Part shown: positions 9,492 through 18,177 of the stretch, in pieces | Numbering within the stretch: the first letter of the stretch is position 1 | Layout: each line of letters starts with the position of its first letter | Assembly: GCA_044360075.1 (NCBI GenBank) | Contig: JBIKLA010000011.1 | Span: 26,668-90,667 of the forward strand | Direction: 5' to 3' | DNA length: 64,000 bases | Source of the DNA: Bdellovibrionota bacterium | GTDB lineage: Bacteria > Bdellovibrionota_C > UBA2361 > OMII01 | The notes under the pieces: generated by a model | The model's input: the letters and a program-made list of their open reading frames with translations, nothing else | Told to the model about the DNA's origin: nothing | The model's database searches: none | Made by a program: the position numbers and the translations under genes

Positions 9492-11081
9492 TTACTTTGC
9501 CGAAGCTGTTTGCTCATCCGAGGTCTCGGCCTGCTTACCTCGATCCCCTTTTCCTCGCGAAGAGGTGGAAGGGGGTTCGGGCGGAACCTCGCGAGCCGCG
9601 GCGTGAGAACGAGTGCCCTCCATCTCGAAGGCATATTCATCCGGGCGCAAGCGCCCATCGGGAAGAATCAGTATCTGAACCCCGTGCTCAGCCTCAAGCT
9701 GCGCGATCTCGGCGCGCTTGTTGTTAAGCAGGAAAAACGCCGGCATGGAGCTCAGGCGCGTCTTTACCTTGGCGACGTGACCCACTACGACCGCGGCCTG
9801 AATCTTGCGCAGTGCCTCAAGTGCCACAAGCTCCGGGTTCTTGATGCTGCCCGTGCCATGACAGTGGTCACATTTAATGTGGCTGTGGCTCGTAAGCGAG
9901 GACCGAAGGCGCTGCCGAGACATCTCAAGGAGCCCAAACTGGGAGAGTCGCCCAAGCTCGATACGGGCCTTATCCTCCGAGAGCGAGTCCTGGAGCCGGC
10001 GCTCAACGGCGCTGCGGTGCCGCTTGTCGATCATGTCGATGAAATCGATAACGACCAGGCCCCCAAGATCGCGCAGGCGCAACTGGCGGGCGATCTCCTC
10101 AGCCGCCTCAAGGTTGGTCTTGTAGGCCGTTTCCTCGATGTTTTGGCTGTCCGTGGCTTTGCCTGAGTTAACGTCGATCGCCACGAGCGCTTCAAGCTGC
10201 TCGATGACGATGGCGCCGCCCGAGCGGAGCTTCACCTCGCGGGCGAGGGCATCATGAACCGCCTGGTCCATTCCGAAGTGTGTGAAGATCGGCTGCTTCT
10301 CCTCGTAGAGGCGGATGCGCGAGCGGTAGCGCGGCATCACCTGGCTGACGAACTCCTTCACGTTGCGGAAGGTCTTGACGTCGTCAATGATGATCTCGCG
10401 CACGTCCGGCGTAAAATAGTCTCGAATAACGCGGGTCGTGAGATTGTTGTCCTTGAATAGAAGGCAGGGGGCCTGGGCGGTCTGGTTGGCGCTCAGGATG
10501 CTCTCCCAAAGCTTGAGTTGGAGGGTGAGATCCCGCGAGAGCTCACTCTGTGAGCGGTCGAGGCCTGCTGTCCTGATAATCATGCCGATGCCGGCCGGCA
10601 TCTCAAGCTCCCGTGACAGCCTGCGCAAACGCACCCGCTGCTCGTTGTCGTTAATCTTTCGCGATATGCCGCCCCGATCGCTGCCCGGCATAATGACTAG
10701 GTATCGTCCAGGCAAGGAGAGATAGGTCGTAAGGGTCGCGCCCTTGAGATCCCGCTCCTCCTTAACGATCTGCACCACGAGCTCTTGGCCTGGCTCAAGG
10801 ACGTCTTGGATTCGCACTTTGCCGGACCGGCCAGGGGCGTTCTTGAAACACGAAGGATGAACGTCGTTAATCTGGAGGAAACCGTTTCTGTCGGTGCCGA
10901 TGTCGACGAAGGCCGCCTGCAGGCTGGGCTCAATCCGCGAAATCCGCCCGCGGTAAATGTTCCCCTTGGCTTTCTTGCCTACGTTCGACTCAAGCTCGAG
11001 CTCAGCTAGCTGCGAGCCCTCGATAATAGCGATGCGGCACTCCTCGGGGTGCACCGCATTGATAACCATTCTCCGGTCCAT
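9492..11081 (-). CDS. rng: ribonuclease G (RNase E/G family, catalytic domain only)
   Basis: S1 domain at the N-terminus (IYRGRISRIEPSLQAAFVDIG), DNase I-like domain and Zn-link CxxC (CDHCHGTG); 529 aa. Confidence 0.85.
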   Translation of the reverse strand: MDRRMVINAVHPEECRIAIIEGSQLAELELESNVGKKAKGNIYRGRISRIEPSLQAAFVDIGTDRNGFLQINDVHPSCFKNAPGRSGKVRIQDVLEPGQELVVQIVKEERDLKGATLTTYLSLPGRYLVIMPGSDRGGISRKINDNEQRVRLRRLSRELEMPAGIGMIIRTAGLDRSQSELSRDLTLQLKLWESILSANQTAQAPCLLFKDNNLTTRVIRDYFTPDVREIIIDDVKTFRNVKEFVSQVMPRYRSRIRLYEEKQPIFTHFGMDQAVHDALAREVKLRSGGAIVIEQLEALVAIDVNSGKATDSQNIEETAYKTNLEAAEEIARQLRLRDLGGLVVIDFIDMIDKRHRSAVERRLQDSLSEDKARIELGRLSQFGLLEMSRQRLRSSLTSHSHIKCDHCHGTGSIKNPELVALEALRKIQAAVVVGHVAKVKTRLSSMPAFFLLNNKRAEIAQLEAEHGVQILILPDGRLRPDEYAFEMEGTRSHAAAREVPPEPPSTSSRGKGDRGKQAETSDEQTASAK

Positions 11082-11410
11082 GAATCCTCTCCGTTAAGGG
11101 AGGCGCTTCGAGCGACGCAGCTCCTGACACACGTCCCGCAGAACGCGCGAGCGCGCTTCCGCATAGCACAGCCGAAGGGCAGAGCCTTCGTCCTGTTATC
11201 GTGCCGTCAGATGGGTAATTCATATCACTCATTGGAACGCTGCAGTCTCAAGGAGCTATCGCTCCGTCTCGTCTCAGTCGCTTAGGGCAAGTCGCCACTA
11301 AACACCTGCGATTTGAGCACCTTCCGTACTTTTAAAAATCTGTTGTTGGATAACCCCAACCAGCCTCGGACGGTAACACACTTCCGAAGTCAGGGGTACA
11401 TTTAACTACG

Positions 11411-11788
11411 TTACGCCGTTTGCTCCTTTTTAAAAAACAAGGCTTCGACCTGACAAGCCAAGTCCTTGAATTTACAAGGCTTTACAATCACTTTCGTGCA
11501 TCCTGCCTGCTCTGCCTCCTGGTGCGCCTGGGGATCATCGAGGGCTGTAAACGCCACAATCGGCACGGTAACACCGCGATTGCGCATCTCCCTGACGCAC
11601 GCCTGACCCGTCATCGCCGGCATCATCAGATCGATGATAATAACGTCCGGCCGCGATGACCCTAATTCGCGCAGGGCGGAGACTCCATCGCAGTGACGGA
11701 TAACCTCAAATCCGCGCCCTTCGAATATAGTGTTTACTATGTCGAGGGCCGACGCGTCGTCGTCGATGACAAGGATGCGGCTACTCAT
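11411..11788 (-). CDS. stand-alone response-regulator receiver (CheY-like) protein
   Basis: Receiver motifs ILVIDDD, phospho-acceptor D in IIIDLMMP, and the conserved T and K positions; 125 aa. Divergent from the T3SS-like operon. Confidence 0.8.
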   Translation of the reverse strand: MSSRILVIDDDASALDIVNTIFEGRGFEVIRHCDGVSALRELGSSRPDVIIIDLMMPAMTGQACVREMRNRGVTVPIVAFTALDDPQAHQEAEQAGCTKVIVKPCKFKDLACQVEALFFKKEQTA

Positions 11789-12023
11789 GGCAAAACCAGA
11801 TGGCGAAAGACAGCAGTCGCCCAGATTGTAACTATTACTCCCAATAGAGATGCATCTCTCGGGATCTAGGATACAAATTACTCCAGGCAGTTGAGCCTTT
11901 TAGCAATTTTATAAATATGTTTGACGCTATCTTCTTGAAAACTATGGACCGTTAGCCGATATGACCCCTTAGGAAGAAGTACTAGGGATTTCCCACTCTA
12001 TAAGTGCCCGAAACGGTTGTGTT

Positions 12024-12043
12024 CATTGCAGACGTCTGCAATG
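12024..12043. promoter_or_regulatory. perfect 20-bp palindrome CATTGCAGACGTCTGCAATG overlapping the ATG of the first FHA gene
   Basis: The sequence equals its own reverse complement. It lies at the head of the FHA/T3SS operon, directly after the AT-rich intergenic region 11789–12016. Confidence 0.6.
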
Positions 12044-13426
12044 AAGCGGAGCCCCTGGGCAAAGCGGATTGCGTGCATGTTTGCGCTTGAGATCACTTTT
12101 AAGGGCGAAAAGCCCTCCACGGAGACGGTTTTCATCCGTCGTCCGTTGGCTGTTATCGGCGCAGATGAGGCGGCGCACGTGATCGTCGATGAGATGCGCT
12201 CTCTCGGATACAACCTGCTTATTAGTCGCGATGTAGGGAGAAAGTTCACCCTCACGCCGATCAACACCTCAAGCGACGGCGCCCAACCCTCCTTTCTTGA
12301 CGGCGTCTACGAGGGGGAATCGAGTGTCGACCTCGGCCCGGTCAAGTTTCACTTCGTGGCGATCGATGGCGACCTGATGCTTCGTGAGACTGAGGCTCCT
12401 GATAGGGCTGGGGCGAGAATTCTGCGCCAGGCAGCAACGAGCAAGGCACCCCTGTACCCGGCGCTCATCGTCACCTCCCAGCCGCGCGTTGTTGTGTCGT
12501 TCTCTCCAGATCAGCCGGTGCTCGTTGGGCGATCGCGCCAATGCTCGCTCCGGCTCGATAATTCTGCTATCTCTTCGCGCCACGCCCGCGTCGGCTACGA
12601 GGGCGGAAAGTTTTGGGTGGAGGACCTGGGCTCAAGCAACGGAACCTTCGTCAACAACCAGCAGATCAGCGGCCGCGTTAACATAGACCCAGGCGCTCAC
12701 ATTTCGTTTGGCAAGGAGGTCACCGCGCGCGGAGTCGTATCCTCAGAGCAGGCCTCGGACGTCTCTGCAGGCGTAAGCCTCTCAAGCCCCAAGGCAGTCA
12801 GCAAGGAGAAGCGCTACCCGATTCTGGTCTCGCTCTCAGAGAGCGCCCGGCCGGCCAAGATTGTGCTCAATGCAGGTGCGGTCATCTCGCTTGGCCGGGA
12901 TCCGTCGAGCGACATGTGGCTCGGGGCTCCTCACGTGTCTCGGCGCCACTGTGCCGTCGAGGTGACGAAGAACGGCGTCGTTCGAATCACGGACTGCAGC
13001 ACTAACGGCACGGCTTACGACGGCGGCATGCTGCGCCGCGACCAAACTTTCGAAAGCTCCGACAAGCCAATCGTGCTCGATTTCGGGGGCAATGTGACTG
13101 TGGCCCTGTGCTTCTCGGAGAAGGACGAACAGGCGTTCACCAATGCGGGCGGCTCAAGCGCGACCTTCCGATTGCCACAGGGTGCGGAAGCAGCATCTTT
13201 CGGCAAACGTGCGGCGAACACCCGCTCGCGGCGGACAACCGCCTGGCTTCAGACCCCGGCGGAGCTCCTCGCCTTGGGAGAAGACACCGGCAAGCGTGGG
13301 GGCTTACGGCAGCTCTACGCGCGACTGTCCTGGCAGGGAAGGCTCGTGCTCGGACTGGCCGCCGTAGGATTAATAGGCGTGTTCGCCCTCGTAGTGGCTA
13401 TTTTAGTTTTGGGATTTCAGAGGTGA
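12041..13426 (+). CDS. double-FHA-domain protein with a C-terminal transmembrane anchor (SctD-like cytoplasmic module?)
   Basis: Two FHA signatures (GR..C...L......SRRHA...-N-SSNGTFVN and GRDPSSDMWLGAPHVSRRHCAVEV...TDCSTNGTAYDG). Single C-terminal TM segment (LVLGLAAVGLIGVFALVVAILVLGF). The ORF-track frame opens at TTG 12017; the ATG at 12041 is preferred. Confidence 0.7.
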   Translation: MKRSPWAKRIACMFALEITFKGEKPSTETVFIRRPLAVIGADEAAHVIVDEMRSLGYNLLISRDVGRKFTLTPINTSSDGAQPSFLDGVYEGESSVDLGPVKFHFVAIDGDLMLRETEAPDRAGARILRQAATSKAPLYPALIVTSQPRVVVSFSPDQPVLVGRSRQCSLRLDNSAISSRHARVGYEGGKFWVEDLGSSNGTFVNNQQISGRVNIDPGAHISFGKEVTARGVVSSEQASDVSAGVSLSSPKAVSKEKRYPILVSLSESARPAKIVLNAGAVISLGRDPSSDMWLGAPHVSRRHCAVEVTKNGVVRITDCSTNGTAYDGGMLRRDQTFESSDKPIVLDFGGNVTVALCFSEKDEQAFTNAGGSSATFRLPQGAEAASFGKRAANTRSRRTTAWLQTPAELLALGEDTGKRGGLRQLYARLSWQGRLVLGLAAVGLIGVFALVVAILVLGFQR

Positions 13427-13500
13427 CGTGCGGTTTTTGGCTAAGGGCTGTTCGTAAGGAACATCTACCGGTTTGTGTGATACTGAGTGAAAGGTGAACT

Positions 13501-14742
13501 ATGGCGAGCGAAACGAGCGATCTGACATTTGTGCGATGCCCCTCATGCAGGAGCCTCGTGCCCGCGAGCGCAACCCGCTGTCGCATCTGCAACAACCCGC
13601 TCGACGCCCTCAACAAGGATGAGGGCGAAAGTGAGGCGCCCAAGCCAAGCGGCGGCCGAGTGCGCCAAAAGACGATCACCGCCTCTCCGCAGGAGGTTGA
13701 AGCGGCGATTCAGTCCGCGCAGGCCGCGCGCCCAGCGCCGCCACCACCCCCTGCGCCTCAGCGGACGGCAGCAGCTCCTGCGCAGGATGCTGTCGATGAT
13801 CTGGACCCGCTTGGGGCTTACCTTCAGGAGATGGAGACTGGAGCTCCCGCAGAGGCTCCCGTCAGGGAGCCCGCTCAGGCGGCATCACCGATGCCCGCGG
13901 CGGACGATGATGACGACCTATTCGACCTCGACATCTTCGACGACCCCATAGGCGAGGGGCCGGCACCCATCCTGAAAACGACGCGAGAAGAGGATCCCTT
14001 CCGGGCGGAGCTTCCGCTCGACGAGCCTCCCGCTGCACCGGAGCCGCCAGCGCGCAAGCCAGTCGAGGCGACTCCGCGTCCCGCCGAGCGACCGCGCCCT
14101 GCTGCGCCGCCGCAGCAGGCCAAGCCAGCAAATAACGAGCCTCGCCGAAACGAAGGCCGGCCACAGCACGATTCCCAGCAGGGGCAAAACCGCAGCGACC
14201 GAATGCAGGATCAGCGGCAGACAAAGCCATCCTCCGCACCGCAGCAGCGCTCACCTGAGCCGAACAGGCCTCGCCGGGATGACAGGGACAATCGCCGGCC
14301 AGAGCGGCCACCTCGTCAGGATCCGCCGAGGCGGGAGCCTGAGCGCCGGGAGGAGATGAGCGACCGCGCCGCAGTGACTGGTCCGAAGACTGGCAAGATG
14401 CGCCCAGGCCGCCTCTTCGGCTGGCTCGTGAGCTACGAAAACCCCGACGGTCGTGCCATCGAGCTGCGCGAGGGCAAGTTCTTTGTTACTGCCTCGAGCA
14501 TCAAGGGCTCCGACCTCGTGCTTGAGGATCCTAGCATCTCCACCCCGCACGCCCTCATGTCGATCAGCGATTCGGGTCTGCTAGTGCAGGACCTCATGAG
14601 CGACAACGGCGTGTTCGTGCGGGTCCACGGCGACGGCGACTACCGCAGGGAGGACGGCATCATTCGGGTGGCGCACGGCGACTGGATTCGTTTCGGCGAC
14701 GTCGATTTCCTGGTTATCGTCGTTCCGTCGTCTGCGAAGTAG
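13501..14742 (+). CDS. zinc-ribbon / proline-rich / FHA-domain protein
   Basis: N-terminal CPSCRS...CRIC zinc ribbon, a long Pro/Ala/Arg-rich linker, and a C-terminal FHA domain (GKFFVTASSIKGSDLVLEDPSISTPHALM...DLMSDNGVFV). Confidence 0.7.
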   Translation: MASETSDLTFVRCPSCRSLVPASATRCRICNNPLDALNKDEGESEAPKPSGGRVRQKTITASPQEVEAAIQSAQAARPAPPPPPAPQRTAAAPAQDAVDDLDPLGAYLQEMETGAPAEAPVREPAQAASPMPAADDDDDLFDLDIFDDPIGEGPAPILKTTREEDPFRAELPLDEPPAAPEPPARKPVEATPRPAERPRPAAPPQQAKPANNEPRRNEGRPQHDSQQGQNRSDRMQDQRQTKPSSAPQQRSPEPNRPRRDDRDNRRPERPPRQDPPRREPERREEMSDRAAVTGPKTGKMRPGRLFGWLVSYENPDGRAIELREGKFFVTASSIKGSDLVLEDPSISTPHALMSISDSGLLVQDLMSDNGVFVRVHGDGDYRREDGIIRVAHGDWIRFGDVDFLVIVVPSSAK

Positions 14743-14756
14743 GTTATAAGGATCTC

Positions 14757-15611
14757 ATGCGTCCAGCGCGTTTTCTCCTGACTTGTCTTCTCACCGCATC
14801 TGTTCTGGGATGCAGCGAGTCTCAGGTTGCGGACGACCTGGCGCAGCGAGACGCAAACCGCATCGTGGCCGAGCTCCGCTCGCGAGGAATCGAAGCCGTC
14901 ACCTCGAAGGAAAGGGGAGCCAAGGGCCGATACTCAGTGTCTGTGCCCAGCTCCCGCTTCGGCGATGCGGCGATGATCCTCAACGATCTAGGACTCCCTG
15001 GCGAGGCGAAGCCCTCATTCGCAGACCTCGTTGCAGCCTCGGGAATACTACCCAGCTCCCGCGAGGTCGAGGCGATGCGCCTCGACCGGGCGTCAGCCGC
15101 GGAGGTGGAGAGCCTTCTCGCAGAGCACCCGGCAGTCGTTTCGGTGGGGGCTATAGTCCGCATGCGGTCGCTTCAGGGCAGCGACGCCCCGTCGGTATCG
15201 GTCATCATCCAGAAGCGCGAGGGATCGGCGCTTGACGAGCTGGCAGTTCGCGATATTGTCCTGCGCTCCGTTCCGGGGATGAAGCCGGAAGCGCTTATGG
15301 TGACGATCGCAGAGCAGCGCCCGGCGCCGACGTTAGTGGGAATTCCGGCGGCGGACTCGCTTGTTCCATTCCTTGTTTTTTGGCGGGTGCCCCAAGAGGA
15401 CTACGGGGGACTCTCGATCCTGCTGCTCGGCCTGCTCGCCGCGATATCTGGCTTGGCAGCTCTCGGGGGCTACATATTCGGGCAATATAACCTGAGCCGG
15501 CATACGGATGCGCTGCGGCTCGAGGCGATTGAGGCCACGAAGGGCGATCCTGAGTTTAGGTATCTCGACTCTCGCGGAGAGAGGAATGAAGATGAGGAGG
15601 ACGAGCCATGA
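14757..15611 (+). CDS. sctJ: type III secretion inner-membrane ring lipoprotein, SctJ (YscJ/PrgK/EscJ) family
   Basis: Lipobox LGC. The N-terminal domain aligns position-by-position with PrgK/YscJ (ANRIVAELRSRGIEA..KGRYSVSVP...FGDAAMILNDLGLP). C-terminal TM helix present. At 284 aa it is far shorter than FliF. Confidence 0.8.
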   Translation: MRPARFLLTCLLTASVLGCSESQVADDLAQRDANRIVAELRSRGIEAVTSKERGAKGRYSVSVPSSRFGDAAMILNDLGLPGEAKPSFADLVAASGILPSSREVEAMRLDRASAAEVESLLAEHPAVVSVGAIVRMRSLQGSDAPSVSVIIQKREGSALDELAVRDIVLRSVPGMKPEALMVTIAEQRPAPTLVGIPAADSLVPFLVFWRVPQEDYGGLSILLLGLLAAISGLAALGGYIFGQYNLSRHTDALRLEAIEATKGDPEFRYLDSRGERNEDEEDEP

Positions 15612-15832
15612 GCGCATCGGCCTGGGAGCAACTGAATCCGCTCGAGCGCGCCCTTGTGGCGGTTGCGGTGCTAATCGACGGCGGGGACGCGGGCAGCATA
15701 CTGCTGCTCGACTCAAAGCGCGGCGAGCTGCTAAGGGAAGCGGCGCTGTACTTCGGCGGCTTGGATCTCGACGCGCGACTTCCATATATGGGAACGCTCC
15801 TGCGCCGGGCTATTGAGGATCAGGAGGAATAG
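15608..15832 (+). CDS. small hypothetical protein (74 aa), translationally coupled to sctJ
   Basis: ATGA overlap with the sctJ stop codon. Helical prediction. Positional candidate for a small T3SS component (SctI/SctK-like), with no sequence proof. Confidence 0.35.
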   Translation: MSASAWEQLNPLERALVAVAVLIDGGDAGSILLLDSKRGELLREAALYFGGLDLDARLPYMGTLLRRAIEDQEE

Positions 15833-16193
15833 GGATGTGGCCAACGAGCGGGACGATCTCGAATCCTACCGTGCACAGGTCGTCGCGGAGCTTGAGTGCC
15901 GCGTCGATCGGGTCAAGCGCATCGATGGCGAGATCGCAGCCGCTGATTTTCGCCTTGAGTCGCTTCGGGCAGGAGCCAGAATTCCCTCCGGCAACACTGG
16001 CAGGTTGCTTACCCAGGTGGCGCTGCGCGACAAGATCAGGCGCGAGAGGCTGCAACTGGAGCGCGAGCGCACGGAGGCTGTGGAGGACGTCAAGCGCGCC
16101 CAAGAGAGGCTTGAGCAGGTGGACGGTGAGATTGAACAGGGGGACGGCGGCTCGCATGAGCTCGACGATGCCCCAGAGGGAGACGAGGACTAA
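15813..16193 (+). CDS. charged coiled-coil protein (126 aa); positional candidate for an SctO/FliJ-like stalk protein
   Basis: Heptad-rich Arg/Glu sequence directly upstream of sctQ, ending 1 nt before the sctQ start. In Ysc-type operons yscO precedes yscP-yscQ. Confidence 0.35.
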   Translation: MRIRRNRDVANERDDLESYRAQVVAELECRVDRVKRIDGEIAAADFRLESLRAGARIPSGNTGRLLTQVALRDKIRRERLQLERERTEAVEDVKRAQERLEQVDGEIEQGDGGSHELDDAPEGDED

Positions 16194-17231
16194 GTGAGCG
16201 GGCAAGAGCCGATAGAGAGCGGAGAGGCACAAGAGGTTCAGCCCTGGGAGCCCCAGCGCATGCTGAGGCGTATCTCAGAGCTGGAAGCGGCGCTGTCGCG
16301 TGGCTTCCTCAGGTGCCGGCCGGAGAAGTGGTTCCCGGGGCTCTCCACCCAATGGATGCCGGTGGCGCACGCCTTCGGCTGCGAGATCGCCGTGACGGAC
16401 ATAAAGCCGGTGCTGGCGGAGCCGCCGAGCAGTGATGCCGCTTTTGTTGGCGTTGTGTCGGGCGAGGAGATGACGCTCGTGCTCGACGCGGACTCCTCCT
16501 CGGCAATGCTTGGCGAGGCGCTTCCGGGCACTGACGGCTTCGCGGCATCGGTGGCACAGGAGTACCTCATGCGGAGGCTGTTCTACTCGCTCGTGACCTC
16601 TTGGACGGGCCCTGAGATCTCATCCGTTTCGTTCCAGGGAAGGCTTGCCTCGCAGCCTGTCAGGACGGCAGGAAGCGTCAAAGTCACGTGCTCGCTTAAC
16701 ACCTCGCAGGTGGTTATCTGGTTCGGGCTAGGAGAACGGATGCTCGCAACCCTCGACGGGCTGTGGCGACGCCAGGTTCAGTCGACTGCCCGCGCCGGCG
16801 CCGGCAGCTCGCAGATTCGGCTTGAGGTGGCGCAGCTCGGGGTTCCGCCGCAGATGCTCTCGGACTACCTAAAACCGGGAACCGTCATCGATCTAGAGGT
16901 ACGGGCGAGCGACATGCTTACGGTTCGCGCGGGCGGCAAGGCCTGGATGCCTGGCCGCATGGTCAACGTGAACGGCAAGCTCGGATGCGAGATAGTGCCC
17001 GGTGCGGTCGCGGCGCCCAGTGTAGCAGAGGGAACTACCCGCCTTTCGATCGAGCTGGGCAACCTGCCCGTCGAGGGTAGCCAGATAGCTGAGTTCGGCC
17101 AGGTGGGTGCCGTAATCGTTACAGGAACCCAGATTGGGCAGGAGGTTGTGCTCTCAATAAACCAGGAGCCGGTGGGTCGCGCTCGGCTGTGCGTATACGA
17201 AGGCCGTTTCGCCATCGAAGTTATCCCGTAA
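16194..17231 (+). CDS. sctQ: type III secretion cytoplasmic-ring protein SctQ (YscQ/FliN family) with tandem SpoA domains
   Basis: C-terminal SpoA/FliN signature (RLSIELGNLPVEGSQIAEFGQVGAVIVTG...EVVLSINQEPVGRARLCVYEGRFAIEVI) and a second internal SpoA-like repeat (QIRLEVAQLGVPPQMLSDYLKPGTVIDLEV...). GTG start. Confidence 0.75.
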   Translation: MSGQEPIESGEAQEVQPWEPQRMLRRISELEAALSRGFLRCRPEKWFPGLSTQWMPVAHAFGCEIAVTDIKPVLAEPPSSDAAFVGVVSGEEMTLVLDADSSSAMLGEALPGTDGFAASVAQEYLMRRLFYSLVTSWTGPEISSVSFQGRLASQPVRTAGSVKVTCSLNTSQVVIWFGLGERMLATLDGLWRRQVQSTARAGAGSSQIRLEVAQLGVPPQMLSDYLKPGTVIDLEVRASDMLTVRAGGKAWMPGRMVNVNGKLGCEIVPGAVAAPSVAEGTTRLSIELGNLPVEGSQIAEFGQVGAVIVTGTQIGQEVVLSINQEPVGRARLCVYEGRFAIEVIP

Positions 17232-17391
17232 GCCTCGACAACAGCTTGATATAACAACACTATCGATCAAGACCCCCAGAACGAAAGCGGGATGCCCCTT
17301 CTCGGCGTGCTGCGTTTCGTGCTACCTAGAGGCATGTGGGGGAGGTAGATGTCTGCGCCCCCTATTCAGTATCTTTCATTCGGGAGGTGTG

Positions 17392-18114
17392 ATGGTACGC
17401 GCGTTCTTTTCAAGCTTAAGCTCACTGGTGTCGGTCTCCGCTGCCGTTGTAATTGGAACGGGGCTGGTGGGATGCCGGGCTTCAGCCGCTCCCGACGCGG
17501 GCTTCATCGATCAGCCTCAACTCATGCACCAGGACGACAAACTGCCTTTTGACGCGGTTTGGTTTAAGGACGGGATTGATTACTCGAAGTTTAAGACGGT
17601 GTACATCGCTCCCGTAGACACGACTCACCTTCTCCAGCAGGACTGGTGGGACAAGGCCAACTTTGCTGCGGGCAGCCAGGAACAGCAGGCCGAGGAACTC
17701 GCTGAGTACCTGCGGAATGAGGTAAAGCAGCAGTTCGTGGATGATGATGAGAACCGCTACTCGGTGGTGGACACGCCGGCCAACGATAGCCTCATAGTTG
17801 AGCTGGCGATCGTAGAGGTCGTCCCGACCAAGGTATGGCTCAACGCGATCGGGTACATCGTCCTGGGCCCTCTTGATCAGGGCGTCACGGCGTTCGAGGG
17901 CCGCTTCCGGGATGGCGCAACCCAGGAGGTCATCGCCGAGTTTAAGGACCGCGAGTTTGGGCAGATGGATATCGTCAGTATCGCCGACCTTCAGTGGAAC
18001 AGGCACTCGCGCCATACCTGCGAAGCCTGGGGCGATCAGCTCGAGGAGGTTCTGTACCGCAAGCCTGGCGAGACCGTCTCGCGCATGTCGACGGTAACGC
18101 TGCGCCCCTGGTAA
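17392..18114 (+). CDS. lipoprotein of unknown function inserted between sctQ and sctR
   Basis: Signal peptide plus lipobox (VVIGTGLVGC). GGGAGG ribosome-binding site 4 nt upstream of the ATG at 17392. No recognised domain. Confidence 0.55.
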   Translation: MVRAFFSSLSSLVSVSAAVVIGTGLVGCRASAAPDAGFIDQPQLMHQDDKLPFDAVWFKDGIDYSKFKTVYIAPVDTTHLLQQDWWDKANFAAGSQEQQAEELAEYLRNEVKQQFVDDDENRYSVVDTPANDSLIVELAIVEVVPTKVWLNAIGYIVLGPLDQGVTAFEGRFRDGATQEVIAEFKDREFGQMDIVSIADLQWNRHSRHTCEAWGDQLEEVLYRKPGETVSRMSTVTLRPW

Positions 18115-18177
18115 GCGGCGATCCGGCCACCACATTCCGTCTAGGCGGGGCGCTCCATCAGCTCTAGTATAGAGCGC

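What the first reader, a model, noticed from the sequence alone, without database searches (positions are those of the whole stretch)
12041..14742. Three FHA domains in two proteins leading the secretion operon (SctD-like module without a periplasmic ring domain)
Protein 1 has two FHA domains and a single TM helix at its extreme C-terminus, with no periplasmic domain. Protein 2 has a zinc ribbon, an unusually long Pro/Arg-rich linker and a third FHA domain. FHA domains bind phospho-threonine and occur at the cytoplasmic face of SctD (YscD/CdsD), so these may replace or regulate the inner-ring component. This would put the machine under Ser/Thr-kinase control, although no kinase is in the window.
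Basis: inference. Interest (0 to 1): 0.65.

Follow-up and report, generated by a model that had tools for sequence, protein, structure and literature searches.

The report
FHA protein pair heading needle-less T3SS
Two conserved proteins carrying phosphothreonine-reader (FHA) domains, one anchored in the inner membrane by its tail and one soluble, always lead a stripped-down type III secretion-like gene cluster in uncultured Bdellovibrionota, which suggests the machine is switched by Ser/Thr phosphorylation, as some other bacterial contact weapons are.

Summary
P1 (12077-13426; homologues show the true start is 36 nt inside the reported one) has two canonical FHA domains, a third cryptic FHA-like N-terminal domain and a transmembrane helix at the extreme C-terminus. 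P2 (13501-14742) has an invariant CxxC...CxxC zinc ribbon, a 265-aa Pro/Ala/Arg-rich linker with conserved short motifs (including RxRxxT58) and a C-terminal FHA domain that lacks the canonical Arg.

The pair is an integral part of the operon. In species-level Bdellovibrionota MAGs with enough flanking sequence, P2 follows P1 in 61/61 loci and SctQ follows in 49/49.

P1 is not an SctD:
- no SctD model or SctD structure matches it;
- none of 145 family representatives has a periplasmic domain;
- its FHA2 and FHA3 resemble the signalling FHAs GarA/OdhI.

P2's FHA is instead closest to the FHA of chlamydial SctD (CT664).

The window holds no kinase. In sister clades the same cluster carries an intact Hanks kinase and a pseudokinase/HEAT protein directly upstream of P1, together with SctV and a Tad/Flp pilus gene set. 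This mirrors the Kil/T3SS* pair of Myxococcus.

Best reading: a phospho-dependent adaptor module for a needle-less T3SS-like exporter with no SctD encoded in the cluster. This is a new variant of a known kind.

The parts
11411..11788 (-). Stand-alone response-regulator receiver gene, transcribed divergently from P1
   Evidence: Pfam Response_reg 1.1e-24. It lies divergently within 1.5 kb of P1 in 47/68 loci, even where RNase G has moved away. In L053 a receiver domain is fused to the cluster's Hanks kinase.
11789..12076 (.). 288-bp A+T-richer divergent intergenic region, presumably the promoter region
   Evidence: Read directly. No sigma-70 consensus above background.
12077..13426 (+).
12077..12361 (+). 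P1 N-terminal family-specific FHA-like beta-sandwich (aa 1-95), without the GR/SxxH/NG motifs
   Evidence: AF2 models, pLDDT about 80-90. Foldseek best matches are EssC FHA 5fwh (E 5e-3) and YscD-N (E 0.075), none at E <= 1e-3. Only 145 proteins of 1.84 billion carry the domain, always at residues 1-126.
12461..12736 (+). P1 FHA2 (aa 129-220), canonical: G151 R152, S166-x-x-H169, N188 G189
   Evidence: Pfam FHA. PDB profile hits GarA/OdhI at 3.5e-11. Motif residues kept in 70-75 of 75 homologues.
12821..13111 (+). P1 FHA3 (aa 249-345), canonical: G273 R274, S288-x-x-H291, N310 G311
   Evidence: Pfam second stretch. Rad53 and Ki67 hits. Motif residues kept in 73-75 of 75 homologues.
13334..13426 (+). 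P1 C-terminal transmembrane anchor (aa 420-449) with about 4 residues beyond it, preceded by a basic, disordered linker
   Evidence: Kyte-Doolittle 3.06. AF2 helix 419-448, disordered 369-406. The anchor is at the extreme C-terminus even in members of 550-693 aa.
13501..14742 (+). P2: zinc ribbon, disordered linker and CdsD-type FHA domain, 413 aa, with no TM segment
13528..13602 (+). P2 zinc ribbon C13-x2-C16...C27-x2-C30
   Evidence: The four Cys are kept in 64/64 homologues. Nearly invariant block in A3.
13657..13683 (+). P2 conserved motif R53-V-R55-Q-K-T58-x-x-A61, a candidate phospho-acceptor and FHA ligand
   Evidence: R53 61/64, R55 58/64, T58 60/64. Invariant in A3 inside an otherwise variable linker. 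Phosphorylation is inferred, not shown.
13798..13944 (+). P2 short linear motifs DDxFDPLGAYLQELE and acidic DDxFDLDIFD within the linker
   Evidence: D102, P103, L104 and L108 are invariant in A3. P103 62/64.
14407..14727 (+). P2 C-terminal FHA domain (aa 303-409), with T-A/G in place of GR and S347-x-x-H350 kept
   Evidence: Pfam FHA 29.4 bits and Yop-YscD_cpl 28.3 bits. Both families match 34/34 members. The only significant PDB hit is 3gqs, CT664/CdsD FHA, at 8.8e-7.
14757..15611 (+). SctJ-like inner-membrane ring lipoprotein, with a TM at aa 215-242 and an acidic tail
   Evidence: YscJ_FliF 2.7e-11. TIGR02544 at 77 bits, below its cut-off. TM.
15608..16193 (+). Two small conserved ORFs (74 aa and 126 aa coiled coil). 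The equivalent second gene in L087 gives a weak FliJ hit.
   Evidence: The 74-aa ORF is present in 55/58 loci.
16194..17231 (+). SctQ-like protein (two FliMN_C repeats)
   Evidence: Pfam 9.6e-17. Present in 49/49 loci.
18178..20188 (+). SctR, SctS, an SctT-like ORF and a 198-aa membrane ORF at the SctU position
   Evidence: FliP 2.5e-23. Bac_export_3 5e-9. The last two ORFs have no Pfam hit in the window. In L048, the ORFs downstream of SctR (not aligned to the window's) are a 269-aa ORF with no Pfam hit and a 311-aa one matching Bac_export_2 positions 2-219 of 335.
20207..20889 (+). Conserved 82-aa ORF plus a TPR protein (LcrH-like chaperone candidate) closing the conserved block
   Evidence: TPR_19 3e-8. 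Synteny.

Best explanation
P1 and P2 are dedicated cytoplasmic-face components of a highly divergent, needle-less type III secretion-like apparatus (SctJ, Q, R, S, T, U-like) with no SctD encoded in the cluster. The apparatus belongs to an uncultured, largely freshwater Bdellovibrionota lineage.

Shown:
- P1 is anchored in the inner membrane by a C-terminal helix and exposes three FHA-fold modules to the cytoplasm. Two of them keep every residue needed to bind phosphothreonine.
- P2 is soluble. It combines a zinc ribbon, a long disordered linker carrying conserved short motifs (including an RxRxxT site) and an Arg-less FHA domain of the chlamydial CdsD type.

Inferred mechanism:
- A Hanks-type kinase phosphorylates threonines. 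Candidate sites are P2 T58, the basic TT-containing linker of P1, or the kinase/pseudokinase itself. The kinase is encoded in the cluster in sister clades and must lie outside this 64-kb window if this organism has one.
- P1 FHA2 and FHA3 read these marks.
- The resulting membrane-tethered P1-P2 assembly recruits or licenses the SctQ-based sorting platform and export gate.

In logic this resembles the T6SS threonine-phosphorylation pathway (PpkA-Fha1) and the FHA-rich Kil/T3SS* predation machinery of Myxococcus. P1 supplies the membrane tether and P2 the T3SS-type FHA surface that SctD's cytoplasmic domain normally supplies. Neither forms a periplasmic ring.
For: Architecture:
- Domains and topology.
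- Near-invariant GR/SxxH/NG in both P1 FHAs across 75 species.
- Sequence and structure closest to the pThr-binding FHAs GarA, OdhI, FhaA and DgcB.

Operon membership:
- P2 in 61/61, SctJ in 54/58 and SctQ in 49/49 loci.
- Short or overlapping intergenic gaps (74 nt, 14 nt, 4-nt overlap).
- When the upstream neighbourhood changes from MreB/RNase G/RR to Tad/SctV/pseudokinase, P1-P2 stay with the sct genes.

Kinase link:
- An intact Hanks kinase at the head of the cluster and a pseudokinase/HEAT protein immediately upstream of P1 in L084 and L087.
- The pseudokinase/HEAT protein is also directly upstream of P1 in 13 genome loci.
- A kinase-receiver fusion after the TPR gene in L053.
- PP2C, a kinase and a tail-anchored FHA next to SctV in L085.
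- A kinase and a Zn-ribbon/FHA protein next to SctV in Persicimonas caeni.

Other:
- The P2 FHA matches the CT664/CdsD FHA.
- T58 lies in an invariant RxRxxT motif.
- Precedents from papers: CdsD is phosphorylated by PknD (PMC2765968), and the Kil clusters are FHA-rich (PMC8460266).
Against: - No kinase or PP2C phosphatase lies in the 64-kb window, and the rest of this genome could not be searched.
- The kinase-like protein next to P1 in relatives lacks all catalytic motifs.
- Two of the four FHA-fold domains (P1 N-terminal, P2 C-terminal) lack the phosphate-binding Arg. Characterised T3SS FHA domains (MxiG, CdsD FHA-2) do not act as canonical pThr readers (PMC3162421).
- No physical interaction, phosphorylation or expression data exist.
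- No SctN or SctC was seen in any flank, and SctV only in the Tad-linked sister-clade loci, so even the activity of the apparatus is unproven.
- Absence of an SctD elsewhere in the genome is not established.
Confidence: 0.55

Rival explanations
1. P1 and P2 are purely structural, phosphorylation-independent scaffolds. Their FHA folds would be protein-protein interaction bricks, as in MxiG/PrgH/YscD of injectisomes or the tandem FHA of EssC in type VII secretion.
For: - The top Foldseek hit for whole P1 and for its N-terminal domain is the EssC tandem FHA 5fwh.
- P2's FHA and P1's N-terminal domain lack the canonical Arg.
- The protein next to P1 in relatives is a pseudokinase.
- No kinase lies in the window.
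- MxiG-N does not bind pThr (PMC3162421).
Against: - All six pThr-binding residues are kept in both P1 FHA2 and FHA3 in 70-75 of 75 homologues, down to 33-40% identity. Purely structural FHAs (MxiG, the Arg-less FHA-2 of CdsD) have lost part of this motif set (PMC3162421).
- Intact Hanks kinases and a PP2C phosphatase are co-encoded in relatives.
Confidence: 0.2
2. P1/P2 primarily regulate a Tad/Flp (Kil-like) pilus rather than the T3SS-like exporter. Their position next to the sct genes would then be a remnant of a composite Tad-T3SS cluster.
For: - In sister clades P1-P2 sit in one co-directional cluster with Flp pilins, TadZ, RcpC, CpaF and TadB/C.
- The Myxococcus kil clusters are enriched in FHA proteins, and KilF carries an FHA domain (PMC8460266).
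Against: - Where the cluster is split, as in the window and about 50 related loci, P1-P2 always remain with sctJ-sctQ and never with tad genes.
- No tad gene was found among the 43 window ORFs scanned with Pfam.
- P2-sctJ spacing is 14 nt.
- P2's FHA is of the T3SS/CdsD type.
Confidence: 0.12
3. P1 is the SctD orthologue that lost its periplasmic domain and still acts as the outer inner-membrane ring around SctJ.
For: - The topology matches SctD up to the membrane: N-terminal cytoplasmic FHA-fold, then a single TM.
- Pfam Yop-YscD_cpl exceeds its cut-off (55.6 against 33.2 bits).
- No other SctD candidate lies in the cluster in any locus.
- YscD-N appears among the weak structural hits of the N-terminal domain.
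Against: - No SctD model in NCBIfam and no canonical SctD chain (YscD, PrgH, MxiG) in the PDB matches P1; its only T3SS-related PDB match is a weak one (E 8.6e-5) to the FHA of CT664/CdsD.
- The FHA model scores twice as high as the YscD model.
- None of 145 family representatives has residues that could form a periplasmic ring.
- The Myxococcales 'short' T3SS locus already shows that such systems can lack SctD altogether (PMC3459982).
Confidence: 0.1
4. P1/P2 are general cell-envelope or cell-division FHA regulators, like mycobacterial FhaA/FhaB(FipA). They would belong with the neighbouring mreB-RNase G region and be unrelated to secretion.
For: - The best NCBIfam hit is FhaB/FipA, 94 bits and below its cut-off.
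- mreB, a GAF-like gene and RNase G lie just upstream on the other strand.
Against: - The upstream block is on the opposite strand and is replaced by Tad/SctV/pseudokinase genes in other clades, while the downstream sct genes are constant.
Confidence: 0.03

Closest known systems
Chlamydial CdsD (CT664/Cpn0712), the SctD with extra FHA domains that PknD phosphorylates
   Same: - FHA domains at the cytoplasmic face of an inner-membrane-anchored T3SS component, linked to a Hanks kinase (PMC2765968).
- P2's FHA is the closest sequence relative of the CT664 FHA in the PDB (E 8.8e-7), and both lack the canonical Arg.
- The CT664 FHA is also a good structural match to P1's FHAs (TM-score 0.84).
   Different: - CdsD is one polypeptide that keeps the periplasmic SctD ring domain. 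Here the functions are split over a tail-anchored protein and a soluble one, and no periplasmic domain exists.
- P1's two FHAs are fully canonical.
T6SS threonine-phosphorylation pathway (PpkA kinase, PppA phosphatase, Fha1/TagH)
   Same: A dedicated FHA protein encoded in a secretion-system cluster reads a kinase-made pThr mark to trigger assembly on contact (cited in PMC8460266). P1 gives a partial TagH match, TIGR03354 at 60 bits.
   Different: The score is far below the TagH cut-off of 120 bits. The architecture differs (triple FHA plus tail anchor), the machine is different, and no kinase or phosphatase lies in this window.
Myxococcus xanthus Kil (Tad-like) system plus needle-less T3SS*
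   Same: - A needle-less, secretin-less T3SS-like core with LcrH-like TPR chaperones, functionally paired with a Tad-like pilus rich in FHA proteins (PMC10433427, PMC8460266, PMC12428579).
- In sister clades of this family the Tad and T3SS-like genes are physically contiguous, with kinase and FHA genes between them.
   Different: - The M. xanthus T3SS* long locus encodes SctD, SctI, SctN, SctL and SctV (PMC10433427). Here no SctD, SctN or SctI was found in any flank.
- This is a different phylum.
- The P1/P2 families were not found in named Myxococcota in the top hits.
Canonical SctD (YscD/PrgH/MxiG/EscD)
   Same: A cytoplasmic FHA-fold followed by a single membrane helix, encoded with sctJ.
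   Different: No periplasmic ring-building domains, no HMM or PDB sequence match to a canonical SctD, three FHA-fold domains instead of one, and canonical pThr motifs that MxiG lacks (PMC3162421).
EssC N-terminal tandem FHA (type VII secretion), and FhaB/FipA (Rv0019c), which NCBIfam lists only as an FHA-domain protein
   Same: FHA modules at the cytoplasmic face of a membrane-bound secretion ATPase (EssC). Top Foldseek hit is 5fwh. Top NCBIfam hit is FhaB/FipA.
   Different: The resemblance is at fold or domain level only. Scores are below the family cut-offs, and the partners and domain order differ.

Membership tests
FHA domain superfamily (PF00498; canonical pThr-binding type) | FHA beta-sandwich fold recognised by the family HMM | tested here: met
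   P1 scores 112 bits with two stretches and P2 scores 29.4 bits, against a cut-off of 20.7. In the AF2 model, Foldseek TM-scores to OdhI, FhaA and CT664 FHAs are 0.77-0.88.
FHA domain superfamily (PF00498; canonical pThr-binding type) | GR after strand 3, SxxH before strand 5 and NG before strand 7 (motifs as listed in PMC3162421) | tested here: met
   Met for P1 FHA2 and FHA3: G151 R152 S166 H169 N188 G189, and G273 R274 S288 H291 N310 G311, kept in 70-75 of 75 homologues. Not met for the P1 N-terminal domain (no motifs). Not met for the P2 FHA, where GR is replaced by T-A/G and N is not conserved.
FHA domain superfamily (PF00498; canonical pThr-binding type) | Actual binding of a phosphothreonine peptide | not testable with these tools
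   Needs ITC, NMR or pull-down experiments with phosphopeptides.
SctD (YscD/PrgH/MxiG) inner-membrane ring protein | Periplasmic ring-building domains C-terminal to the membrane helix, contacting SctJ and the secretin | tested here: not met
   P1 ends about 4 residues after its TM. Among 145 family representatives, the nine longest (551-693 aa) were read; in them the extra length is a disordered cytoplasmic linker and at most about 12 residues follow the TM, while the rest, at 410-580 aa, are too short to add a ring domain. P2 has no TM.
SctD (YscD/PrgH/MxiG) inner-membrane ring protein | Sequence match to SctD family models or to solved SctD chains | tested here: not met
   No SctD model appears among the NCBIfam hits. 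No YscD, PrgH, MxiG or EscD chain appears in the PDB profile searches. The Pfam Yop-YscD_cpl match of P1 (55.6 bits) is outscored by FHA (112 bits) from the same clan.
SctD (YscD/PrgH/MxiG) inner-membrane ring protein | N-terminal cytoplasmic FHA-like domain followed by one TM, encoded within the sct cluster | tested here: inconclusive
   The topology and location fit P1. The N-terminal domain matches YscD-N only at E 0.075 and MxiG at 0.45, no better than generic FHAs. P2's FHA matches the CdsD FHA at 8.8e-7 but sits at the C-terminus of a soluble protein.
T6SS TagH/Fha1 (TIGR03354) | Full-length match above the curated cut-off, within a T6SS cluster | tested here: not met
   59.9 bits against a cut-off of 120.25, covering the FHA part only. 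No T6SS genes were found around it.
Needle-less T3SS* of Myxococcota (Abby & Rocha 'Myxo' type) | NF-T3SS core (SctJ, Q, R, S, T, U, V, N) without secretin, needle or translocon | tested here: inconclusive
   SctJ, Q, R and S are identified and T- and U-like ORFs are present. No secretin, SctF/SctI or SctN was seen in the window or in 80 loci, though the check for these was limited: a SctN motif regex and Pfam scans of selected ORFs. SctV occurs only in sister-clade clusters. The whole genome could not be searched, and no phylogeny was made.
Needle-less T3SS* of Myxococcota (Abby & Rocha 'Myxo' type) | Genomic or functional pairing with a Tad-like (Kil) system | tested here: met
   Met in the sister clades L055, L064, L072, L075, L084 and L087: RcpC, T2SSE, two T2SSF, Flp pilins and TadZ lie contiguous with SctV-P1-P2-SctJ. 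Not seen within the window itself.

The most novel reading that the evidence does not exclude
P1/P2, together with a Hanks kinase and a membrane pseudokinase/HEAT protein, form the phospho-relay that couples a Tad/Flp contact pilus to a needle-less, SctD-less T3SS-like exporter in a composite predation or contact machine of Bdellovibrionota. In this reading a tail-anchored triple-FHA protein plus a soluble CdsD-type FHA protein have taken over the sorting-platform docking role of SctD's cytoplasmic domain, and the periplasmic ring has been dispensed with. The Tad-T3SS* partnership known only from Myxococcota would then be ancient, physically encoded as one locus and kinase-gated.
Probability: 0.3. 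Interest if true: 0.8.

Novelty: new variant of a known kind. Interest (0 to 1): 0.62.

Why it matters
FHA-based phospho-control of secretion machines is established for T6SS, hinted at for chlamydial T3SS and suspected for the Myxococcus Kil system. How the needle-less T3SS* is docked, localised and triggered remains open (PMC12428579).

This family gives a clean, strongly conserved two-protein module with explicit, testable residues: P1 R152 and R274, and P2 T58. It sits between a kinase/pseudokinase and the sct core, and in sister clades it physically links Tad and T3SS-like genes in one locus.

The family also shows a T3SS-like core that is conserved across dozens of species with no SctD-type ring protein encoded anywhere in the cluster. 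This bears on models of how the injectisome evolved from the flagellar export apparatus (PMC3459982).

It extends the Tad/T3SS* pairing beyond Myxococcota, although a review describes Kil/T3SS* co-occurrence as restricted to Cystobacterineae.

Tried and rejected
- Promoter and terminator scan of 11300-21700: counts were at shuffle background, so nothing can be said about transcription units.
- Kinase and PP2C hunt in the window, using phmmer with PknB and PstP sequences written from memory: no hit in the window, and no PP2C in any of the 80 loci. The kinase hits in loci were then confirmed with Pfam.
- Regex hunts for SctN (GYPPSVF, Walker A) and for the SctU NPTH site: no SctN hit, and the four NPTH hits lie in minus-strand ORFs outside the SctU position, in all loci. 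The SctV motif led to L072 and then to the Tad-SctV block.
- Large inserts between sctQ and sctR in L018, L043 and L021 were checked as possible SctV/N/C genes. They are unrelated cargo: a GH3/SpoIID protein, an AAA/pentapeptide protein, an FG-GAP protein, a methyltransferase and others.
- Whether o788 (24335-26701) is the missing pseudokinase/HEAT protein: no similarity.
- Whether P1's N-terminal domain is related to P2's FHA: hhalign probability 0.2%.
- Whether P2 is orthologous to the Persicimonas Zn-ribbon/FHA protein: similarity is limited to the FHA domain and the CxxC pattern.
- The Thiery et al. 2022 T3SS* paper is not in the library, so I could not check whether the M. xanthus T3SS* locus holds P1/P2-like genes.
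As a result the complete MAG CP129486.1 (L048) could not be searched for kinases, SctV/N/C or an SctD.

Full report
**1. What is in the sequence**

The + strand between 12.0 and 20.9 kb carries a tight co-directional run of ORFs:
- P1: 12017/12041/12077-13426.
- P2: 13501-14742, 74 nt after P1.
- An SctJ-like lipoprotein: 14757-15611, 14 nt after P2.
- Two small ORFs: 15608-15832, overlapping sctJ by 4 nt, and 15813-16193.
- SctQ: 16194-17231.
- A DUF3313 lipoprotein.
- SctR, SctS, an SctT-like ORF and a 198-aa membrane ORF at the SctU position.
- An 82-aa ORF and a TPR protein.

The identifications come from Pfam and NCBIfam: YscJ_FliF 2.7e-11, FliMN_C 9.6e-17, FliP 2.5e-23, Bac_export_3 5e-9. 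The NCBIfam equivalogs for SctJ, SctQ and SctR all match well below their cut-offs, so this is a very divergent non-flagellar T3SS-like set.

A receiver-only response regulator (11411-11788) lies upstream on the other strand. Beyond it are RNase G, a GAF-like gene and MreB. The rest of the window is housekeeping. Among the 43 long ORFs scanned with Pfam (about half of the 85 ORFs of at least 150 aa, chosen by eye as the likely genes) there is no SctV, SctN, secretin, kinase or PP2C. A phmmer screen of all window ORFs of at least 80 aa found no kinase or PP2C either.

**2.

P1:
- It has two Pfam FHA stretches (E 1.7e-32) and a single hydrophobic segment at residues 420-449 of 449.
- All 120 listed homologues cover about 97% of the 461-aa query, the aligned ones all begin MFALEI..., and three independent gene callers give 449 aa. 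The start is therefore ATG 12077.
- AlphaFold2 on a 60-sequence alignment (pLDDT 83) gives three beta-sandwich domains (1-95, 129-220, 249-345), a helix at 108-121, a disordered basic linker at 369-406 and a terminal membrane helix at 419-448.
- Modelled alone, the N-terminal domain gives only weak but consistently FHA-type Foldseek hits: EssC 5e-3, Rv0020c, DgcB, YscD-N 0.075 and MxiG 0.45, with none at E <= 1e-3. It is best called a divergent FHA-like fold.

P2:
- It has a CxxC-x10-CxxC zinc ribbon whose four Cys are kept in 64/64 homologues.
- It has a 265-residue linker with 18.5% Pro, 14.3% Ala and 11.7% Arg.
- It has an FHA domain at 303-409.
- Inside the otherwise hypervariable linker three short motifs are conserved. 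These are R53-x-R55-x-x-T58 (T58 in 60/64), DDxFDPLGAYLQELE (P103 in 62/64) and an acidic FDLDIFD patch.

**3. The pair belongs to the secretion cluster**

A scan of one genome per species found 270 loci encoding relatives. The best 80 were kept, and 78 of them are clear P1-family loci. Nearly all titles that name a taxon say Bdellovibrionota, Bdellovibrionales, Oligoflexia or 'delta proteobacterium', and many come from lake-derived MAGs.

Among loci with enough flanking sequence:

| Feature | Loci |
|---|---|
| P2 directly after P1 | 61/61 |
| The 74-aa ORF | 55/58 |
| SctJ | 54/58 |
| SctQ | 49/49 |
| Divergent receiver gene within 1.5 kb upstream | 47/68 |

The upstream neighbourhood (MreB, GAF, RNase G) is replaced wholesale in other clades, while P1-P2-sctJ...sctQ stays constant. 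This rules out the idea that P1/P2 belong to the cell-shape genes next door. No promoter or terminator signal rises above shuffle background, so co-transcription is inferred from spacing and synteny only.

**4. What kind of FHA proteins these are**

P1 FHA2 and FHA3 are canonical. The three motifs that define phosphothreonine-binding FHA domains are GR, SxxH and NG (listed in PMC3162421). They are present in both domains and kept in 70-75 of 75 homologues, down to 33-40% identity.
- A profile search of PDB sequences returns GarA, OdhI, Rv1827, Rad53 and Ki67, and no canonical SctD chain such as YscD, PrgH or MxiG; its only T3SS-related hit is a weak one (E 8.6e-5) to the FHA of chlamydial CT664/CdsD.
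- Foldseek gives TM-scores of 0.77-0.88 to OdhI, FhaA, DgcB and CT664 FHAs.
- NCBIfam lists FhaB/FipA, TagH, OdhI and GltG, all below cut-off, and no SctD model.
- The Pfam Yop-YscD_cpl hit that might suggest SctD (55.6 bits) is outscored two-fold by FHA, from the same clan.

The N-terminal domain is family-specific. A profile of it finds only 145 proteins among 1.84 billion representatives. The domain is always at residues 1-126, in proteins of 410-693 aa. In the nine longest members that I read (551-693 aa), the extra length is a longer disordered linker and the membrane helix stays within about 12 residues of the C-terminus. The remaining members are too short to carry an added ring domain. 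P1 is therefore neither a truncated pseudogene nor an SctD that lost its ring in this one organism. It is a stable tail-anchored family that never has a periplasmic part.

P2's FHA is different. It lacks the Arg (T-A/G in place of G-R), keeps S347-x-x-H350, and matches Yop-YscD_cpl and FHA equally in 34/34 members. Its only significant PDB relative is 3gqs, the FHA of Chlamydia trachomatis CT664/CdsD, the chlamydial SctD (E 8.8e-7). The two share the same Arg-less 'VGSD / VTGSS ... D-h-V-L-x-D-x-S-I-S-x-x-H-A' pattern.

**5. The kinase question**

The window has no kinase, but relatives do.
- In L053 a bona fide Hanks kinase fused to a receiver domain follows the TPR gene of the cluster (Pkinase 4e-54, Response_reg 4e-20).
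- In a divergent clade of 13 loci, a protein of about 800-890 aa sits directly upstream of P1 and in the same direction. It has a degenerate kinase domain, a membrane helix and HEAT repeats.
- Look-ups of SctV homologues then revealed the full arrangement in two long contigs, L084 (a 1.87-Mb contig of a Bdellovibrionota MAG) and L087. The order is: Hanks kinase, TadZ-like ATPase, RcpC, T2SSE ATPase, two T2SSF, SctV, pseudokinase/HEAT, P1, P2, SctJ, a 75-77-aa ORF, a coiled-coil ORF (weak FliJ hit in L087), SctQ, SctR, SctS and SctT, with SctU called in L087 before the locus ends (L084's locus ends at the SctT position). In L084 two Flp pilin genes lie between the TadZ-like ATPase and RcpC; the small ORFs at that position in L087 have no Pfam hit.
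- The head kinases keep GxGxxG, VAMK, HRDLKPEN, DFG and SPE. The kinase/HEAT proteins have none of these motifs.
- In other lineages, SctV is flanked by a 149-aa tail-anchored single-FHA protein, a PP2C phosphatase and a giant kinase (L085).
- In the cultured predator Persicimonas caeni (Bradymonadales), SctV is flanked by a Hanks kinase and a Zn-ribbon/two-FHA protein.

FHA proteins and Hanks kinases recur beside SctV in the five lineages looked up. In the window's clade the cluster has been split, and the P1...TPR half sits next to a receiver gene. Whether this organism has the kinase/SctV/Tad half elsewhere could not be tested.

**6. Most likely mechanism**

Shown:
- The architecture, topology and conservation of P1 and P2.
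- Linkage to the sct genes.
- Linkage to kinases in relatives.

Inferred:
- P1 is a membrane tether that reads phosphothreonine through FHA2 and FHA3.
- P2 is a flexible adaptor. Its RxRxxT58 site, the TT-containing basic linker of P1 in some clades, or an autophosphorylated kinase, is the ligand.
- P2's CdsD-type FHA and acidic motifs contact the SctQ-based platform or the export gate.
- Phosphorylation would thereby license assembly or secretion, as PpkA-Fha1 does for T6SS.

The main rival is a phospho-independent scaffold, as in MxiG or EssC. The two degenerate domains and the pseudokinase favour that rival. The near-total conservation of twelve pThr-pocket residues across 75 species argues against it.

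'Replacement of the inner ring' in the literal sense is excluded, because nothing protrudes into the periplasm. Replacement of SctD's cytoplasmic docking role remains possible. A precedent for T3SS-like loci without SctD exists in the Myxococcales 'short' locus (PMC3459982).

**7. Comparison with known systems, and novelty**

The system works like:
- the T6SS threonine-phosphorylation pathway;
- the CdsD-PknD pair of Chlamydia (PMC2765968);
- the FHA-rich Kil/T3SS* machinery of Myxococcus, probably the closest analogue (PMC8460266, PMC10433427, PMC12428579).

It is not a member of SctD or TagH, because defining features were tested and not met. I found no description of T3SS-like clusters in Bdellovibrionota, or of this protein pair, in the searchable literature. 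A 2025 review states that Kil/T3SS* co-occurrence appears restricted to Cystobacterineae.

I rate it a new variant of a known kind. The principle, FHA/kinase gating of a secretion machine, is familiar. The implementation is new: a tail-anchored triple-FHA protein plus a Zn-ribbon/IDR/CdsD-type-FHA protein heading a T3SS-like core with no sctD in the cluster. In sister clades that core is fused to a Tad locus.

**8. Limits**

- Everything functional is inference from sequence, predicted structure and gene neighbourhood.
- The source genome beyond 64 kb, and the complete MAG CP129486.1, could not be searched.
- Two structure libraries were offline.
- E-values for the N-terminal domain fold are weak.
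- Whether the apparatus secretes anything is unknown. No SctN or secretin was seen in any of the 80 genome-scan loci, and SctV only in the Tad-linked sister-clade loci; for the secretin this rests on Pfam scans of selected ORFs only.

Noticed in passing
L084 1-22256; L087 1-22208; also L055, L064, L072, L075 upstream of P1: Sister clades carry one co-directional supercluster. The order is Hanks kinase, TadZ-like ATPase, RcpC, CpaF-type ATPase, TadB/C, SctV, pseudokinase/HEAT, P1, P2, SctJ and so on through SctR-S-T, with SctU called in L087; L084 also has two Flp pilin genes after the TadZ-like gene. Tad-like and T3SS-like systems are thus encoded as one locus in Bdellovibrionota, reminiscent of Myxococcus Kil plus T3SS*.
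   Followed up: partly
window 19592-20188: The ORF at the SctU position is only 198 aa, has no Pfam hit and has no NPTH autocleavage motif. In L048, an unaligned 311-aa ORF downstream of SctR matches only positions 2-219 of the 335-position FlhB/YscU model. The substrate-switch domain may be missing or encoded elsewhere (L085 has a 350-aa SctU next to SctV).
   Followed up: partly
window 11411-11788 (-); L053 15031-16296: A receiver-only response regulator is kept divergently next to P1 in 47/68 loci. In L053 a receiver domain is fused to the cluster's Hanks kinase, hinting at cross-talk between His-Asp and Ser/Thr signalling.
   Followed up: partly
L006, L008, L009, L012, L014, L015, L023, L054: These loci go from sctQ (or DUF3313) straight to the 82-aa ORF and the TPR gene, with no room for sctR-S-T. 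The export-gate genes are elsewhere or lost in these species.
   Followed up: no
window 17389-18114: A DUF3313 lipoprotein gene is inserted between sctQ and sctR in the window's clade only (52-77% identity in close relatives, absent in others).
   Followed up: no
window 22711-24153 (-): A 480-aa ORF with no Pfam family is 63-76% identical across many loci and stays next to the cluster's 3' end. That conservation is unusually high for an unannotated protein.
   Followed up: no
window 24335-26701 and 21663-22664: Large ORFs of 788 aa and 333 aa downstream of the cluster have no Pfam match and only weak, patchy conservation (o788 21-24%, o333 30-35%, each in a few loci). They may be candidate cargo or effectors, or lineage-specific accessories.
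   Followed up: no
L085 12078-12527 (-), 16081-16992 (-), 16997-22061 (-): In another lineage, a 149-aa protein with one canonical FHA domain and a C-terminal membrane anchor (a 'mini-P1') sits next to SctV. A PP2C phosphatase and a 1700-aa kinase/sigma-54-activator protein lie nearby.
   Followed up: no
L088 (Persicimonas caeni CP042468) 1387-2583, 10001-12112, 13149-14297: In this cultured Bradymonadales predator, SctV is flanked by a Hanks kinase and a zinc-ribbon plus two-FHA protein. This offers a genetically accessible analogue for testing FHA/kinase control of T3SS*.
   Followed up: partly
L018 16221-20838; L043 15087-20462: Unrelated cargo is inserted between sctQ and sctR in some genomes: a GH3/SpoIID protein, a pentapeptide-AAA ATPase, an FG-GAP protein, a methyltransferase, SRAP and a nitrilase. 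The cluster tolerates interruption at this point.
   Followed up: yes
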